Notes under the pieces: model-generated | Database searches by the model: none | What the model was told of the DNA's origin: nothing | Seen by the model: only the letters and a program-made list of their open reading frames with translations | DNA from: the human T2T-CHM13v2.0 reference genome, Homo sapiens | NCBI RefSeq assembly: GCF_009914755.1 | Contig: NC_060935.1 | DNA: 64,000 nt | Strand: one strand, 5' to 3' | Position numbers and translations under genes: made by a program | Shown: piece after piece, positions 2,440 to 11,700 of the stretch | Numbering within the stretch: position 1 is the stretch's first letter | How the letters are laid out: each line of letters starts with the position of its first letter

Positions 2440-2620
2440 TATATTGCAATTACATCAGATAATTGTGATTAATTTTAATTGTCTTTTTGTGACCTCAGGA
2501 GACTGGGACAATAGGTAGTCTCTAGGGTTCATGTCTCCTAGGTGTAACTGTAGATATAAGAATGCATGTATCACTCTCAGCCTGGAAACATCCTACCTTT
2601 GCCATCAATAGGTTTGCATT
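2440..2620 (+). promoter_or_regulatory. Orphan OR5D-type putative promoter / first non-coding exon
   Basis: Homologous to blocks ~2.6 kb upstream of both OR5D18 and OR5D16. Has TAATT HD-like sites, O/E-like CCTCAGGAGA and TCTCTAGGGT, TATA-like GATATAAG, and donor-like AG|GTTTGC (GT 2612-2613). Confidence 0.5.
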
Positions 2621-4465
2621 GAGATTCTAAAGACAGATTGATATTAATTTCAATCCATAAAAAAATCTAGGAGGAGCAAAATGCACCCTTAGAACTAAAC
2701 AGTTCTTGAAAACTATGCGTGAATATGCAAGAAACAGGAAGTACTCTCTTTCCACACAACTTTGTATCAGAAGGCCTGGCTCCTGAACAACAGCCTCATG
2801 TAAAACTGGTACCTGGGATGGGGAAATAGAAGAACTTTGAGAATATTAGGAATGTGTATTTCCTTGCTTCTGTTAAGTTTTGGAGGAAATTTCAAGACAG
2901 AATAGACAAGTAGTTATGTAAATTGAAATAAATAGAAATGAAACAGACTCTCTAGTGAAAAAAACAAGGGAAGGGATCTGCTTTAATTAAGATTGTATAA
3001 CAGGAAATGCATGTCACCCCTAAGAGCAAAAATAACAGCTAAATTTGAAGGGGTGGGGGGGATTGACAGAAAAGGAGATTTCATCTGCCATATTTCCTGG
3101 AATCAAATATCTAAACTTTTAATAACTATTCAATACTTGCATTTGTGACACAAAACTCATTATGTAAAATATAACATTAGTTTAAAATAAAATTTTAAAT
3201 GCTTTAGAGGAGTGAAATGCAGTATTGGGAAAAATGTCCTAATTAGATTTTCTGGGTTTGTGATGGACTGTCTTTTGAGATTGTCTTTAATACTCAAATT
3301 CACTAGTATAGGAAAAGAGGGCCATTGAGTAACTTGGTCTTGCATGTAACTGGAAATCTTTCTTGATGGGCCGTCTAAAACTTTCTTGGGTGTTGTGAAT
3401 AGAGATAATGTCTTTGATGATAGAGAAAGCAAATACAGATATGACAGGATCTGAGAGGTGTTGGACACTAATTAGAGAAATTTAATGATTTCCTTTCCTA
3501 TTCCTTTCCTTTCCCATTAATGTTTCCTGTTTTCTCATTAAGGGTCTTGATGTTGCAGTAGTACCTCTAGTTTTTAGTCCTTCTCCTTCATAGGTAATAG
3601 AAGGACAAAATTAAAATCCAGTGTGTCTTGAAGGGAGTGAAGAGAAATAGAGATGGAGATAGGGAAAGACAGAGAGGATCTTGAAGAGAAGAGAAATTTG
3701 CAAGTCATAGTCTTCCTATAGTTATTCCTCGGTGAGAAGATTTTCCTCAATCCCATTCTCATGTGTTTTATCTTGATGCTGCTTTCTAGTGTATCTTTGT
3801 GGCAATTAACTATTGTTGGGCTCTTTCTCACACATGTAGAGTCTCTAGACTGCTTATTAATGGAAATATAGTTATTAATGAAGGGAATATGTTAGTATCT
3901 ACATCTGGATCATGGGGCAGATTTGGGGGCAGGTAAAGGGATACATGGCTAGGAGTCTGAGGATCAGAGCTCTAGTCATGCATAGGTAGATTGGTCTTTA
4001 TACATGTATCAATGGAAAGGTCAAAGTTTCTCTTTTTTCTCCTTTGTCACCTCCAGAATAAAGAATAAACTAGATTATCTGTATAATCTGTTCTAATTTG
4101 ATTATTTCTCAGGCAATGAGGAAAGATTGCTAATTAGCACACCCTGAGTTAAGGAGCATACACTCTAAAAAATTAATTAAGACGTATTTCTAAGTTATTT
4201 TTACAAGGTTGGACAAAGAGTAAAGCGCTATATGGAATTAACAATAAAGGCACAAATGTTAAGTGTTAGGGCTATTAATAGTTAATGTCACTGGGAACAT
4301 ATGATGTAAAAACTAATTTATTTTGAAAATTCTGATTTGTATTACTGATTACAGGATTTACATAATCAGCCATCATATTATACCAGGATTATCTTTTATG
4401 AATTTTCAATATTCAAGGAAGGCCTAAGGTATTATGTAAATTTCTATTTAAAATAATCACACATA

Positions 4466-4751
4466 TTGGGAGGCCGAGGCGGGTGGATCATGAGGTCAGG
4501 AGATCGAGACCATCCTGGCTAACAAGGTGAAAGCCCGTCTCTACTAAAAATACAAAAAATTAGCCGGGCGCGGTGGCGGGCGCCTGTAGTCCCAGCTACT
4601 CGGGAGGCTGAGGCAGGAGAATGGCGTGAACCCGGGAAGTGGAGCTTGCAGTGAGCCGAGATTGCGCCACTGCAGTCCGCAGTCCGGCCTGGGCGACAGA
4701 GCGAGACTCCGTCTCAAAAAAAAAAAAAAAAAAAAAAAAAAAAAAAAAAAA
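4466..4751 (+). mobile_element. AluYb8, 5'-truncated, with a pure poly(A) tail
   Basis: Diagnostic 7-nt duplication gcagtccgcagtccggcc, plus ggatcatgagg and aacaaggtg. CpGs are largely intact. TSD aatcacacata at 4455-4465 and 4752-4762. Confidence 0.95.
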
Positions 4752-5506
4752 AATCACACATAATTTAACCTCATCTTCTTATATTTGTAAATATTAAAAA
4801 TTACAGTTAATAACAATATATTATTCAATAATTATATTTTTCTCAAGAAAATTTTAAAAGATTACAATTTTCTACAACTTTAGATATTTAGTAAATCTTG
4901 AACAATAAACACACAGATTCTAGAAGAGATATTTTCCTTCATGCTTCTCAAATTATGGGAAGGCTACCACAAAGACTTCCCCAAATTTAATTATGTAATA
5001 ATTGATTATCTTCTATTATTTCACATTGAAGTAACTTATTTAAAATAATAAAATTTATTTTAAATTTAAAATTGTTGATTGAATTAAAACTAGGTAATGC
5101 AATATTTTATTCATATGGCATTATCTTATGTGGTTTAAGTACATGTCATCAAAAGTGTAGTGCTTCACACTTATATTATTCGATTTATGGATAGTGACCT
5201 TGACATTTTTTCCAACTATTTTAAATTTAAATCAACTTTTAAAGACTCCTCCTATCTCTTTAAGCATAAGGTAAATAGGTAAGTAAAACAGCTTTCTTGT
5301 GGGTTGTCTATATGACATAAGGCAATACTGCCAATTATGTTTTCTATAGATGCATTTTCAGCTTTTCTATCATGACTCTCTTCCTCAAGAGAGACGCATT
5401 TTGTGATAATAATTTAGCAATACACTAAGAACAAAATGAATAGATATTTAACAAAGGTTTTCATTATTCTATTATATATCTGAGTGTATATAGTATACTA
5501 TATATG

Positions 5507-9530: not shown

Positions 9531-10031
9531 TATAGTCATGCATTGCTGAAGGAGGAATTCTAAAGGAAGGAAATAGTATTATAAAATGTTTAAAATCTGT
9601 GTTTTATCCCTCTCTTAATCAGATAATGTTTTTTCAAATGCCATGGTTTGAGCACTGCTTGATGGCAGTATTTTTCTCATTGTGTATTAAGGGACAATTT
9701 GGTGGGAAGTGGAAACTATTTAATCTGCAATACCAAATATCTTACAACAGCTATTAATGTGAGATGAAAAGCAGTCTGAACAAATTGGGATGAACACTTG
9801 TTTTCTCTATCCTTCCCTCTTTCCCCTCTATCACACTAACTCTGTCCAGACAACCTAGTAAAGACTGCATGGAGATTATCTCCAAAGTCACCTTGATGCT
9901 GAGGGTGGTAGCAAGAGGCAATAGGAACAGGACTGTTCATGGAGGGACATGAACATGAGAACCACCTCTGAAGCAGAAAGAAGAGGAATTACTTTTTCTT
10001 TTTGAAAAGCATGTTGAAATGCCTCTCTATG

Positions 10032-10261
10032 GCAGGTTTCTCAACTAAGGCATCATTGAATTGTTGGTCCAGATAACGTTTTGTTGTATGTGCTGCAGGC
10101 AGGGACCTTCATGTACTTTGTAGAAGGCATTGTAGATTGTTCAACAACATCCCCACTACATGTCAATAGCACCCCCTTCCTCTTGTAACAACCAAAAATG
10201 TCCCCAGACATTGACAAATATGCCATTGGGATCAAAGTCACTTTTGACAAAGAATCACCGC
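10032..10261 (-). mobile_element. MER20 hAT DNA transposon (paralogue ~25789-26020)
   Basis: caggtttctcaac...acaaccaaaaatgtccccagacattgacaaat matches the recalled MER20 sequence. Confidence 0.8.
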
Positions 10262-11669
10262 TCTATGTGCAATTAACAGCTTGATTTTTTTTTTCTTTAG
10301 ATTTGAAAGCAGGAAAGGGCTTTCAAAAGTGTGTATTAGTTTGAACTCAGGGGAAGATACACAACTCACCTCTCCTGGTCATTTTAAGAGAAAACACCAT
10401 ATTATCAAAACAATTTTTTTAAATTTTCAACCTGGCATTTAGCAATATGCATGCTGCATATCTTTGAAATCAGTTGAAGAATGGGAAAAATGTCTGGTTG
10501 TGTTGGTCTCTAGTCCAGATTTTTTTCTTGCAGGAGTGCTTGACTGGTGCTTCTACAATGATGTATGAACGTATCAAGGGTCAGGAAGAGAAAGAATGAC
10601 AAGATTCTCACCCTCACTTTACGTTTGCTGTGTGTCAAAGGTCTAAAAAGTATGTGTCCCTAATTTTAAAAATTCCAACGTCTTTCCCCATTTCACTCAC
10701 TAATAATGATGTTTTGGGAGAAGTAAGACAAGTTAACAGATTTTTTAAAATAAATATTTATGTTCATGGATGTTGTAAGGATTAAATATACGATTGTGTG
10801 TGGCATAAATATATGTATTTATATTATACATTATTATATACTATTTTTTCTCTACATTCTGGCTGTTTTTAAGTATTTTATCCCTTTTCACAGTCATTTA
10901 TTGATATCATTAAGATGATTTAAAGTTATCCTTTATATGACTGCATGCTTTTATATTATATACACTACAAATGTGATCATCTTTCTCTTATTTGATATTT
11001 TATTTCTAAGTTTTAATATTACAAACAATACTGCAATGCAGCAGTGGGAAGTTTTCTTAGTAATTTCCCATGCACATCTTTGATCAGGTCTTCAAATAGA
11101 TTGAAAGCAGTAAATTTATTTAAGACATAATTTTTTAAGACTGTGGAGTCATACTTACAGTAAGTTGTCCCCAAGAGTACCAATTCCCTAAACCATGGCT
11201 GACATTGAAAAATGTAATTAACCAAATCACCATACTAATTTTACAGAGAAAATACTAATACAGATTATAAAATGAGTTTCTTCATCTAAAATATATCAAT
11301 AAAATGCAAACACTTGACTGCTAACATCTTAAGTGTATTTCTCATCACTGTAATGAAAAATTCAGAGAGAGGTGCCGTAGATTCTAAACATTATTTTCTA
11401 GGATCCCAATATTTGGAGTTGGCTAAGAAAATGGGATTTGAATTTGAAAGAGTAAGGAGGCTAATTAAATAGTAAGTTGACCTCATTCCCAATGATTCAG
11501 TGAAAAGCTGTCAATTCTCAAAGACTAATTAAAAGAACAATATAAATTCATATATACGTTAATATTTTTGTTTGATCTTTGAATTAAACTAAGTTTATGC
11601 ATTTGTGTTATACAAAGTTGAACTTTTTAAAATTTCACAAAAAGTTTTATTCTTTGCTGATAAGATAAA

Positions 11670-11700
11670 CTATCCTACTTTTTCTGGTGTCTTTTTACAG
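11670..11700 (+). promoter_or_regulatory. Likely splice acceptor of the OR5L1 coding exon (paralogous AG at 27440-27441)
   Basis: Polypyrimidine tract ...tttttctggtgtctttttacAG|g, conserved in both copies. Confidence 0.6.

What the first reader, a model, noticed from the sequence alone, without database searches (positions are those of the whole stretch)
2440..11700. Orphaned OR5D promoter/exon 1 now facing OR5L1: candidate promoter capture
Seen: a unique block at ~2440-2950 aligns with blocks ~2.6 kb upstream of both OR5D18 (~17140-17650) and the more distant OR5D16 (~36320-36850). All three keep a donor-like site (AG|GTTTGC at 2612, CAG|GTTTGC at 17315, CAG|GTTTGT at 36503), a TATA-like AT box, and TAAT and O/E-like motifs. 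No OR5D exon follows the first copy; the next OR acceptor on this strand is that of OR5L1 (AG 11699-11700). Known: OR genes use short Lhx2(HD)+Ebf(O/E) promoters with non-coding 5' exons, and promoters influence choice frequency and zone. Inference: OR5L1 may have two promoters from different subfamilies. Alternatively the orphan is a receptor-less decoy in singular OR choice, or a local enhancer.
Basis: partly seen in the sequence, partly recalled or inferred. Interest (0 to 1): 0.8.

Follow-up and report, generated by a model that had tools for sequence, protein, structure and literature searches.

The report
Leftover upstream region of deleted OR5D gene
The block is the leftover upstream flank of an olfactory receptor gene whose coding exon was cut out by a 3-kb deletion after a tandem duplication, and nothing available shows that it now drives the neighbouring gene OR5L1.

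Summary
The homology is real, but the block is not an isolated element. It is part of a ~15-16 kb tandem duplication. Unit A runs from -2866 to 13812 and holds OR5L1. Unit B runs from 14188 to 29525 and holds OR5D18 and OR5L2. The units are ~83-85% identical.

Unit A lacks B 19830-22867 (3,038 bp), which holds the OR5D18 acceptor, the coding exon and ~2 kb of 3' flank. The junction at 4945-4947 is clean, with a TTC microhomology. The OR5D16 unit aligns straight across the B breakpoint, so A carries a deletion. No OR coding remnant survives.

So "orphaned OR5D upstream region facing OR5L1" is right. "Promoter/exon 1" is unproven:
- The donor-like site is weak, and weakest in the orphan.
- O/E-like motifs occur at chance level and none is conserved in all three copies.
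- A-B identity of the block is unexceptional.
- The orphan has not evolved faster than its OR5D18 sister.

The curated HAVANA models show single-exon OR5L1 and OR5D18. OR5D18 itself is almost silent in human olfactory epithelium. Promoter capture is therefore possible but unsupported.

The parts
1..13812 (+). Duplication unit A. It begins outside the window at -2866, 310 bp after the OR5D14 stop, and is 16,679 bp long. It holds the orphan flank and OR5L1.
   Evidence: Colinear blastn blocks to unit B. Ungapped identities of the four segments are 85.2, 83.3, 84.3 and 85.3%.
14188..29525 (+). Duplication unit B (15,338 bp). It holds the OR5D18 upstream flank, OR5D18 and OR5L2.
2104..4947 (+). 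Relic 5' flank of the deleted OR5D paralog. It is colinear with B 16804-19829.
   Evidence: blastn 2104-3234~16804-17926 (82.5%), 3275-4467~18488-19647 (80.2%), 4747-4947~19630-19829 (81.9%). MAFFT gives 83.3% over 2491 ungapped columns.
2440..2950 (+).
   Evidence: 85% to B in the genome search. 86.8% over 508 columns, with 12.8-15.7% of 511-bp non-coding windows equal or higher. Three-way alignment A1.
2753..2890 (+). Core with the highest similarity to the OR5D16 copy.
   Evidence: B-C and A-C identity is 66-74% in 60-column windows, against a background of about 42-55%. A-B is 89.1% here versus 82.6% in the rest, Fisher p=0.06.
2609..2617 (+). Donor-like site TAG|GTTTGC. The GT is at 2612-2613.
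   Evidence: Read directly. Rough PWM score is 2.5 bits, the 81st percentile of 3,264 GT sites. Copy B scores 5.0 (93rd) and C 5.7 (95th).
4945..4947 (+). Deletion junction with TTC microhomology.
   Evidence: Local alignments: A 4850-4947 ~ B 19733-19829 and A 4945-5048 ~ B 22868-22970.
19830..22867 (+). The 3,038-bp segment of unit B that has no counterpart in A. It holds the OR5D18 acceptor (AG 19894-19895), the CDS 19928-20869 and ~2 kb of 3' flank.
   Evidence: The OR5D16 unit aligns across the left breakpoint (18684-20972 ~ 37874-40118) and inside the segment (21344-21584 ~ 40827-41060).
16804..19829 (+). OR5D18 upstream flank, the intact counterpart of the relic.
36189..37083 (+). OR5D16 upstream counterpart (copy C).
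   Evidence: 56-59% identity, E 1.8e-24 and 5.7e-22. It has a cluster of six groups of O/E-like matches at 36367-36713.
5507..7792 (-). LTR retroelement inserted in unit A only. Its two ~350-bp LTRs are 82% alike and it is flanked by ATATG on both sides.
   Evidence: Direct repeat 5507-5858 ~ 7437-7792. Ends and flanks read. Absent at B 23403-23581. The MaLR family name and minus orientation are recalled from LTR end sequences, not tested.
8950..10100 (+). The most conserved non-coding A/B stretch. It is a candidate for OR5L1's own upstream regulatory or 5' exon region (inference).
   Evidence: The top 12 of 273 windows of 511 bp (88.1-89.2%) all lie here. O/E-like matches conserved in A and B at 9245, 9327 and 9511, with two more pairs weakened in one copy at 10201 and 10222.
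11680..11700 (+). OR5L1 acceptor: polypyrimidine tract plus CAG, with AG at 11699-11700.
   Evidence: Read directly and conserved in OR5L2.
11786..12721 (+). OR5L1 coding sequence.
   Evidence: Hub annotation. 94.7% nt and 92.3% aa identity to OR5L2.

Best explanation
The block is part of the 2.8-kb upstream flank (2104-4947) of an OR5D18-like gene that no longer exists.

How it arose:
- A ~15-kb unit [spacer - OR5D flank - OR5D gene - spacer - OR5L gene] was duplicated in tandem tens of millions of years ago.
- In the first copy, a 3,038-bp deletion with a 3-bp microhomology removed the splice acceptor, the whole coding exon and about 2 kb of 3' flank.
- The upstream flank was left 6.7-9 kb upstream of OR5L1, on the same strand.

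This much is shown. The following is inferred. The relic is now most likely inert or at best a very weak promoter. OR5L1 is driven, like OR5L2, from its own OR5L-type upstream region, near 9-10 kb in the window.

The confidence given is for the whole statement. For the structural part alone it would be about 0.97.
For: Structure:
- Colinear homology lies on both sides of the gap.
- The junction is exact.
- The outgroup copy OR5D16 spans the breakpoint, so B holds the ancestral state.
- No OR remnant: 0 of 12 tblastn HSPs lie in 2000-11700. No ORF of 100 aa or more and no Rfam match.
- The OR5D14-to-OR5L1 spacing is the same in GRCh38 (15,811 bp from the HAVANA coordinates) and in this assembly (15,806 bp), so the deletion is in both.

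Weak or no function:
- The donor-like site is at the 81st percentile of window GT sites and has lost the -3 C that B and C keep.
- O/E-like matches are at chance and not conserved.
- Block identity is within about 1 SD of non-coding windows.
- The sister promoter's gene OR5D18 was called expressed in 0 of 26 mucosa samples (Verbeurgt 2014, passages). It was at the floor value in 3 of 4 olfactory epithelium samples (Olender 2016 Table S7) and non-zero in 2 of 12 samples (Barnes 2020 file 6).
- HAVANA gives single-exon models for all five genes.
- The best-conserved non-coding A/B stretch, with shared O/E-like sites, lies at 8950-10100 upstream of OR5L1 and OR5L2.
Against: - With OR5D16 as outgroup, the orphan has not changed faster than the OR5D18 flank. 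A-unique versus B-unique changes are 20 vs 23 in the block, 5 vs 7 in the core and 114 vs 140 overall. There is therefore no sign of relaxed constraint relative to a copy that still has its gene.
- The block is slightly more alike between A and B than the rest of the flank (86.8 vs 82.0%, Fisher p=0.0096). That test is biased, because the block was picked by eye for similarity.
- The core that is best kept between B and C is also well kept in A, at 92-95% in 60-column windows.
- OR5L1 is detected a little more often than OR5L2: 10 of 12 versus 7 of 12 samples, and 4 of 4 versus 3 of 4 samples above the floor value. An extra promoter could explain this, although counts are tiny and the coding sequences are 94.7% alike.
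- No transcript-level data could be examined here. The Olender GTF could not be read.
Confidence: 0.78

Rival explanations
1. Promoter capture. The orphan still fires in olfactory neurons and its short first exon is spliced over 6.7-9 kb to OR5L1 5'UTR exons or to the acceptor at 11700. OR5L1 would then have an OR5D-type and an OR5L-type promoter.
For: - Same strand, with no gene, ORF or acceptor-bearing OR exon in between.
- The cognate acceptor was deleted.
- The OR5L1 acceptor is strong and conserved.
- There is precedent. Barnes 2020 lists 7 human OR loci sharing 5'UTR exons with an upstream gene (passages). Olender 2016 describes OR51E2 spliced to a 5' exon of the pseudogene OR51C1P in prostate (passages).
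- OR5L1 is detected slightly more often than OR5L2.
- There is no rate acceleration in the orphan.
Against: - The curated OR5L1 model has a single exon.
- The donor is weak and further weakened in the orphan.
- The sister promoter yields almost no OR5D18 RNA in humans.
- O/E-like motifs are at chance.
- OR5L1 has a conserved upstream region of its own, shared with OR5L2.
Confidence: 0.07
2. Receptor-less decoy. The orphan is still chosen at low frequency and makes a sterile transcript. Neurons that choose it get no receptor feedback and go on to choose another OR. This would be a fixed natural version of the engineered coding-region-deletion alleles.
For: - The flank is intact up to 98 bp before the former start codon, and it has not evolved faster than copy B.
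- Kambere and Lane 2007 (passages) report two relevant findings. Neurons that first transcribe an OR without an intact reading frame choose again. [quoted passage not shown]
Against: Same as for promoter capture: there is no evidence of promoter activity, the sister gene is nearly silent, and motif content is at chance. No transcript is annotated in 1-11685 (hub table).
Confidence: 0.1
3. Local enhancer for neighbouring OR genes, of the Greek-Island type.
For: Three strict homeodomain sites lie at 2447-2481 in copy A. The core at 2753-2890 is kept in all three copies.
Against: - The block has no O/E match with <=1 mismatch and no composite HD+O/E arrangement.
- The homeodomain sites are absent from B (0) and nearly absent from C (1), so they are not conserved.
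- AT-rich TAAT words are common in DNA that is 62.5% A+T.
Confidence: 0.03
4. The similarity is due to an unrecognised interspersed repeat or to chance.
For: None found.
Against: - The genome-wide search finds only the block itself and copy B. The same tool found 45 places for a neighbouring repeat.
- The homology is colinear over 15 kb.
- An nhmmer profile finds only A, B and C at E<1e-100. The next hit is at E=0.048.
Confidence: 0.01

Closest known systems
OR gene loss by deletion within tandemly duplicated OR clusters (birth-and-death evolution of OR genes)
   Same: There is a tandem duplication of a two-gene unit, followed by loss of one copy. The surviving paralogs OR5L1 and OR5L2 are 94.7% identical in coding sequence.
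   Different: Most human OR losses are in-place pseudogenes that keep a recognisable coding region. Barnes 2020 gives a mean pseudogenic CDS of about 290 aa (passages). Here the entire coding exon is gone, so no pseudogene is annotated and only the 5' flank remains.
Readthrough OR loci that share 5'UTR exons with an upstream gene (Barnes et al. 2020, PMC7055050), and the OR51E2/OR51C1P chimeric transcript in prostate (Olender et al. 2016, PMC4982115)
   Same: The geometry is the same: upstream non-coding OR sequence on the same strand as a downstream OR coding exon with a good acceptor.
   Different: Those cases are defined by transcript-supported junctions. None is annotated here and I had no reads to test one.
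Engineered OR alleles with the coding region deleted, as summarised in Kambere and Lane 2007, PMC1995454
   Same: An OR upstream region without a receptor coding sequence.
   Different: Those alleles have a proven active promoter. Here activity is unknown, and the sister gene OR5D18 is almost silent in humans.
Canonical OR promoter: homeodomain plus O/E sites within a few hundred bp of the TSS, followed by short 5' non-coding exons (Olender 2016; Young et al. 2011, PMC3247239, seen in search listing only)
   Same: The position about 2.6 kb upstream of the coding exon in copies B and C fits the usual OR gene layout. Copy C has a cluster of O/E-like matches.
   Different: In the orphan and in copy B, O/E-like matches are at chance level. 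The putative first exon would be only about 25-30 nt if the TATAAG at 2555 were used.

Membership tests
Gene relic left by an internal deletion in a tandem duplication | Colinear homology to the paralogous unit on both sides of the missing segment | tested here: met
   2104-4947 ~ 16804-19829 and 4945-5495 ~ 22868-23403, then 7853-13812 ~ 23581-29525
Gene relic left by an internal deletion in a tandem duplication | An outgroup copy keeps the segment, showing deletion rather than insertion | tested here: met
   The OR5D16 unit aligns across the breakpoint (18684-20972 ~ 37874-40118) and inside the segment
Gene relic left by an internal deletion in a tandem duplication | No coding remnant of the lost gene | tested here: met
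   0 of 12 tblastn HSPs (E<=10) lie in 2000-11700. No ORF of 100 aa or more.
OR promoter plus non-coding exon 1 | Transcription start site supported by transcript ends | not testable with these tools
   No reads are available. HAVANA models for OR5D18, OR5D16 and OR5L1 have no upstream exon. The Olender GTF was unreadable.
OR promoter plus non-coding exon 1 | O/E (EBF) sites near the TSS, enriched over background | tested here: not met
   4 matches in 2104-4947 versus 3.8 +/- 1.9 in shuffles. None is shared by A, B and C. Copy C alone has a cluster. The consensus was recalled and the scan is crude.
OR promoter plus non-coding exon 1 | Homeodomain (LHX2-type) sites | tested here: inconclusive
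   3 strict sites in A (2447, 2460, 2476), 0 in B and 1 in C. The DNA is AT-rich.
OR promoter plus non-coding exon 1 | Functional splice donor at the end of exon 1 | tested here: inconclusive
   AG|GTTTG is conserved in all three copies but scores low: A 81st, B 93rd and C 95th percentile of window GT sites (using a recalled frequency table). The same conserved stretch also reads as a pyrimidine-rich YAG|G acceptor.
OR loci sharing 5'UTR exons with an upstream locus | Splice junction between the upstream exon and the downstream OR, supported by RNA | tested here: not met
   The curated GTF has a single exon for OR5L1 (GRCh38 55811367-55812476). Power is low: OR5L1 normalised counts are 0-8.7 in 12 samples.
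Interspersed repeat | Many dispersed copies in the genome | tested here: not met
   2 places for the A block and 1 for the C block, against 45 for the control stretch 16250-16790
Greek-Island-type OR enhancer | Composite homeodomain + O/E motif, and LHX2/EBF/LDB1 binding | tested here: not met
   No O/E match with <=1 mismatch in the block. Binding is not testable here.

The most novel reading that the evidence does not exclude
Humans carry a fixed, natural 'coding-deletion' OR allele: an OR5D-type upstream region that still fires in a few olfactory neurons. There it would either splice onto OR5L1, giving that receptor promoters from two subfamilies and perhaps two expression zones, or make a sterile choice that forces a second round of receptor choice. 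The equal substitution counts in the orphan and in the OR5D18 flank (20 vs 23) and the retained core do not exclude this.
Probability: 0.1. Interest if true: 0.6.

Novelty: new member of a known kind. Interest (0 to 1): 0.25.

Why it matters
The result explains an odd piece of OR5D-like sequence as the scar of an ordinary gene loss. It also gives the exact duplication units and the deletion junction, which are not in the gene table supplied. No pseudogene is annotated, because nothing coding is left.

If the relic were active, it would be a natural experiment on what an OR promoter does without its receptor. The sister gene's near silence in humans makes that unlikely. The two paralogous units offer a matched comparison for anyone with human olfactory RNA data: with and without the OR5D gene, upstream of 94.7%-identical OR5L genes.

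Tried and rejected
- my first identity profile chained blastn HSPs automatically. An Alu cross-match displaced the true colinear blocks and 2104-3234 was lost. I discarded it and redid the profile with MAFFT on four hand-set segment pairs.
- an nhmmer profile of the three blocks was run against 94 kb, including the OR5D13, OR5D15P and OR5D14 upstream regions. It found nothing convincing beyond A, B and C. The best extra hit, -5376..-5230 upstream of OR5D14, has E=0.048 and 6.2 bits, and its alignment is poor. The block could not be extended to the older OR5D genes.
- a genome search with the OR5D16 block found only itself. The tool therefore does not reach ~56-60% identity and cannot exclude very old repeats.
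- Constraint in the orphan: the core versus the rest gives p=0.06, and the window percentile is 13-16%. Neither result is decisive either way.
- Rfam and ORF scans of the interval found nothing.
- a paper search was rejected for a quote mark in a term. I reworded it.
- Literature: the search for 'OR5D18' or 'OR5L1' returned 57 papers, of which 25 were listed. None of the listed titles concerns gene structure or this deletion. I did not open most of them.
- Olender 2016 supplementary GTF (MOESM6) and MOESM2 could not be read. They may hold assembled transcripts for these genes.

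
Full report
**Observation**

The three stretches were read.

Self-comparison of the window, and of 30 kb fetched upstream of it, shows why. Two long tandem units are colinear:
- Unit A spans window -2866 to 13812 (16,679 bp).
- Unit B spans 14188 to 29525 (15,338 bp).

The aligned blocks are:

| Unit A | Unit B |
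|---|---|
| -2866..-196 | 14188..16787 |
| 2104-4947 | 16804-19829 |
| 4945-5495 | 22868-23403 |
| 7853-13812 | 23581-29525 |

Ungapped identities of these four blocks are 85.2, 83.3, 84.3 and 85.3%. The differences in length are post-duplication insertions:
- A 2.3-kb insert in A at -196..2104.
- Alu-like copies at A 4454-4764 and B 17930-18493.
- An LTR element in A at 5507-7792.

**The deletion**

Unit A has nothing matching B 19830-22867.
- Local alignments place the junction at A 4945-4947. The left alignment ends at B 19829 and the right one starts at B 22868, and both share TTC.
- The missing 3,038 bp hold the pyrimidine tract and AG (19894-19895) in front of OR5D18, the coding sequence 19928-20869 and about 2 kb after it.
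- The older paralogous unit of OR5D16 aligns without a break across the left breakpoint (18684-20972 ~ 37874-40118) and again inside the missing segment (21344-21584 ~ 40827-41060). B therefore shows the ancestral layout and A has lost the segment.
- A tblastn with the OR5D18 protein gives 12 HSPs at E<=10 over the 94 kb, and none lies between 2000 and 11700.
- That interval has no ORF of 100 aa or more and no Rfam family.
- The distance from the OR5D14 start to the OR5L1 exon start is 15,811 bp in the GRCh38 HAVANA file and 15,806 bp here. The deletion is therefore in both assemblies.
- From 15-17% divergence and recalled neutral rates, the duplication is tens of millions of years old (inference). 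The deletion cannot be dated with what I have.

**The third copy**
- Plain blastn finds only 2796-2887 ~ 36699-36792 (73%, E=8e-7).
- With relaxed scoring, the whole flank is colinear with OR5D16's at 56-59%.
- In a three-way alignment of the full flanks (3,310 columns, Alus removed), B-C identity is mostly 42-55%. It rises to 60-64% around A 2400-2480 and 2570-2640, and to 68-72% at A 2753-2870.
- An nhmmer profile of the three blocks finds no credible fourth copy upstream of OR5D13, OR5D15P or OR5D14.
- Genome-wide, the A block matches only itself and B, and the C block only itself.
- The same tool found 45 places for the nearby stretch 16250-16790, so it does see dispersed repeats when they exist. 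It does not reach below about 70% identity.

**Is it a promoter with a first exon?**

I could not show this.
- *Donor.* AG|GTTTG is kept in all three copies, but T at +3 and +4 makes it a poor donor. With a rough frequency matrix (recalled values), the orphan's site scores 2.5 bits, the 81st percentile of 3,264 GT sites in the window. B scores 5.0 (93rd) and C 5.7 (95th). The orphan has T where B and C have C at -3. The conserved stretch CCTTTGCCAYCAAYAG|G reads equally well as an acceptor.
- *O/E sites.* Matches (<=2 mismatches of 8) number 4 in 2104-4947, against 3.8 +/- 1.9 in shuffles. None is shared by all copies. Only the OR5D16 copy has a cluster, with six groups in 36367-36713.
- *Homeodomain sites.* Strict words number 3 in A, 0 in B and 1 in C.
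- *TATA box.* TATAAG is present in A and B. If used, it would leave a first exon of only about 25-30 nt before 2612.

**Constraint**
- With OR5D16 as outgroup, changes unique to A versus unique to B are 20 vs 23 in the block, 5 vs 7 in the core and 114 vs 140 over the flank. The orphan has not sped up.
- The block is 86.8% identical to B, against 82.0% for the rest of the flank (p=0.0096). It was chosen by eye for being alike, so this test is biased.
- Among 273-293 non-coding windows of the same length across the duplication, 12.8-15.7% are at least as alike.
- The core chosen from the B-C comparison gives 89.1 vs 82.6%, p=0.06.
- These numbers fit either mild shared constraint or none.

**OR5L1's own upstream region**
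- The twelve most alike non-coding windows all lie at 8928-10113 (88.1-89.2%).
- O/E-like matches are kept in both units at 9245, 9327 (1 mismatch) and 9511. Two further pairs, at 10201 and 10222, are weakened in one copy.
- I infer that both OR5L genes use an OR5L-type upstream region 1.5-2.5 kb before their start codons.
- The acceptor at 11699-11700 is strong and conserved in OR5L2.
- The annotated OR5L1 exon starts 15 nt upstream of the exon boundary that acceptor predicts (11701), exactly 100 nt before the ATG. The annotated 5' end is probably not a true start.

**Published data**
- Barnes et al. 2020 (PMC7055050; passages and supplementary files 1, 4 and 6) curated human OR models from 12 olfactory samples.
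  - OR5L1 and OR5D18 have one exon with short UTR extensions. OR5L2, OR5D16 and OR5D14 are coding-only.
  - Normalised counts are tiny. OR5L1 ranges 0-8.7 and is non-zero in 10 of 12 samples. OR5L2 is non-zero in 7 of 12 and OR5D18 in 2 of 12 (<=0.5).
  - They list 7 human OR loci that share 5'UTR exons with an upstream gene.
- Olender et al. 2016 (PMC4982115; passages and Table S7) give these FPKM values in four samples:

| Gene | Sample 1 | Sample 2 | Sample 3 | Sample 4 |
|---|---|---|---|---|
| OR5L1 | 0.28 | 0.22 | 0.06 | 0.20 |
| OR5L2 | 0.22 | 0.22 | 0.02 | 0.003 |
| OR5D18 | 0.003 | 0.02 | 0.003 | 0.003 |

  - They also describe OR51E2 spliced in prostate to a 5' exon of the pseudogene OR51C1P.
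- Verbeurgt et al. 2014 (PMC4011832; passages) called OR5D18 expressed in 0 of 26 individuals. Their assay cannot tell it from OR5D16.
- Kambere and Lane 2007 (PMC1995454; passages) summarise two findings. Neurons transcribing an OR without an intact frame choose again. A locus with its coding region deleted goes on being transcribed.

**Verdict**

This is the 5' flank of an OR5D18-like gene whose acceptor and coding exon were removed by a single clean deletion inside a tandem [OR5D-OR5L] duplication.

The functional reading remains a hypothesis with known precedents but no support here. It is weakened by four things:
- the weak donor;
- motif content at chance;
- ordinary conservation;
- the near silence of the sister gene in human olfactory tissue.

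I rate it as an ordinary relic of gene loss with a small chance of residual promoter activity.

Noticed in passing
window 16168-16787 and its partner at -814..-196 (just upstream of the window; L005/L008): This stretch is far more alike between units A and B than its surroundings. The four 100-bp windows covering -700..-301 are 91-97% identical, against about 76-88% nearby. It is also a dispersed repeat, with 45 places in the genome at 71-91%. Local gene conversion is a guess. I have no explanation for why a repeat copy should be the best-kept non-coding piece.
   Followed up: partly
window 11786-12721 vs 27528-28463: The OR5L1 and OR5L2 coding sequences are 94.7% identical in nt, against about 80-86% in the flanks. 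The first 300 nt are 100, 96 and 99% identical per 100 bp. Differing codons are 20 synonymous and 24 non-synonymous. This looks like a gene-conversion tract at the 5' end of the coding region rather than purifying selection alone.
   Followed up: partly
window 5507-7792 (minus strand): A full-length LTR retroelement is present in unit A only. It has ~350-bp LTRs that are 82% alike and is flanked by ATATG on both sides. LTR divergence is about equal to A-B divergence, so it inserted soon after the duplication. The MaLR family name is recalled from the LTR end sequence.
   Followed up: partly
-8954..-8811 (upstream of the window, L005): An unannotated fragment resembles the C-terminal 48 residues of OR5D18 (tblastn E=4e-8, 46% identity; blastn -8981..-8884). 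It lies between OR5D15P and OR5D14 and may be another OR relic.
   Followed up: no
window 36367-36713: Six groups of O/E-like matches cluster within 350 bp of the OR5D16 upstream block, one of them with a single mismatch (TTCCTTGGGA at 36584). Only one more occurs in the other 2.7 kb of that flank. This is the best candidate promoter signature in the three copies, and A and B lack it.
   Followed up: partly
window 11686: The annotated OR5L1 exon starts exactly 100 nt before the ATG. That is 15 nt upstream of the exon boundary (11701) predicted by the strong conserved acceptor at AG 11699-11700, inside its pyrimidine tract. The annotated 5' end is probably not a real transcript start.
   Followed up: no
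window 14091-14258: An 85-bp tandem repeat (14091-14175 ~ 14174-14258, 88%) sits at the boundary between units A and B. A third partial copy lies at -2860..-2796, the start of unit A. It may mark the duplication breakpoint.
   Followed up: no
window 93-715: Part of the 2.3-kb insert that separates the orphan flank from the upstream spacer in unit A matches 43413-42791 in reverse at 75%. This is presumably a dispersed repeat. The insert is absent from unit B, where 16787 and 16804 are 17 bp apart.
   Followed up: no
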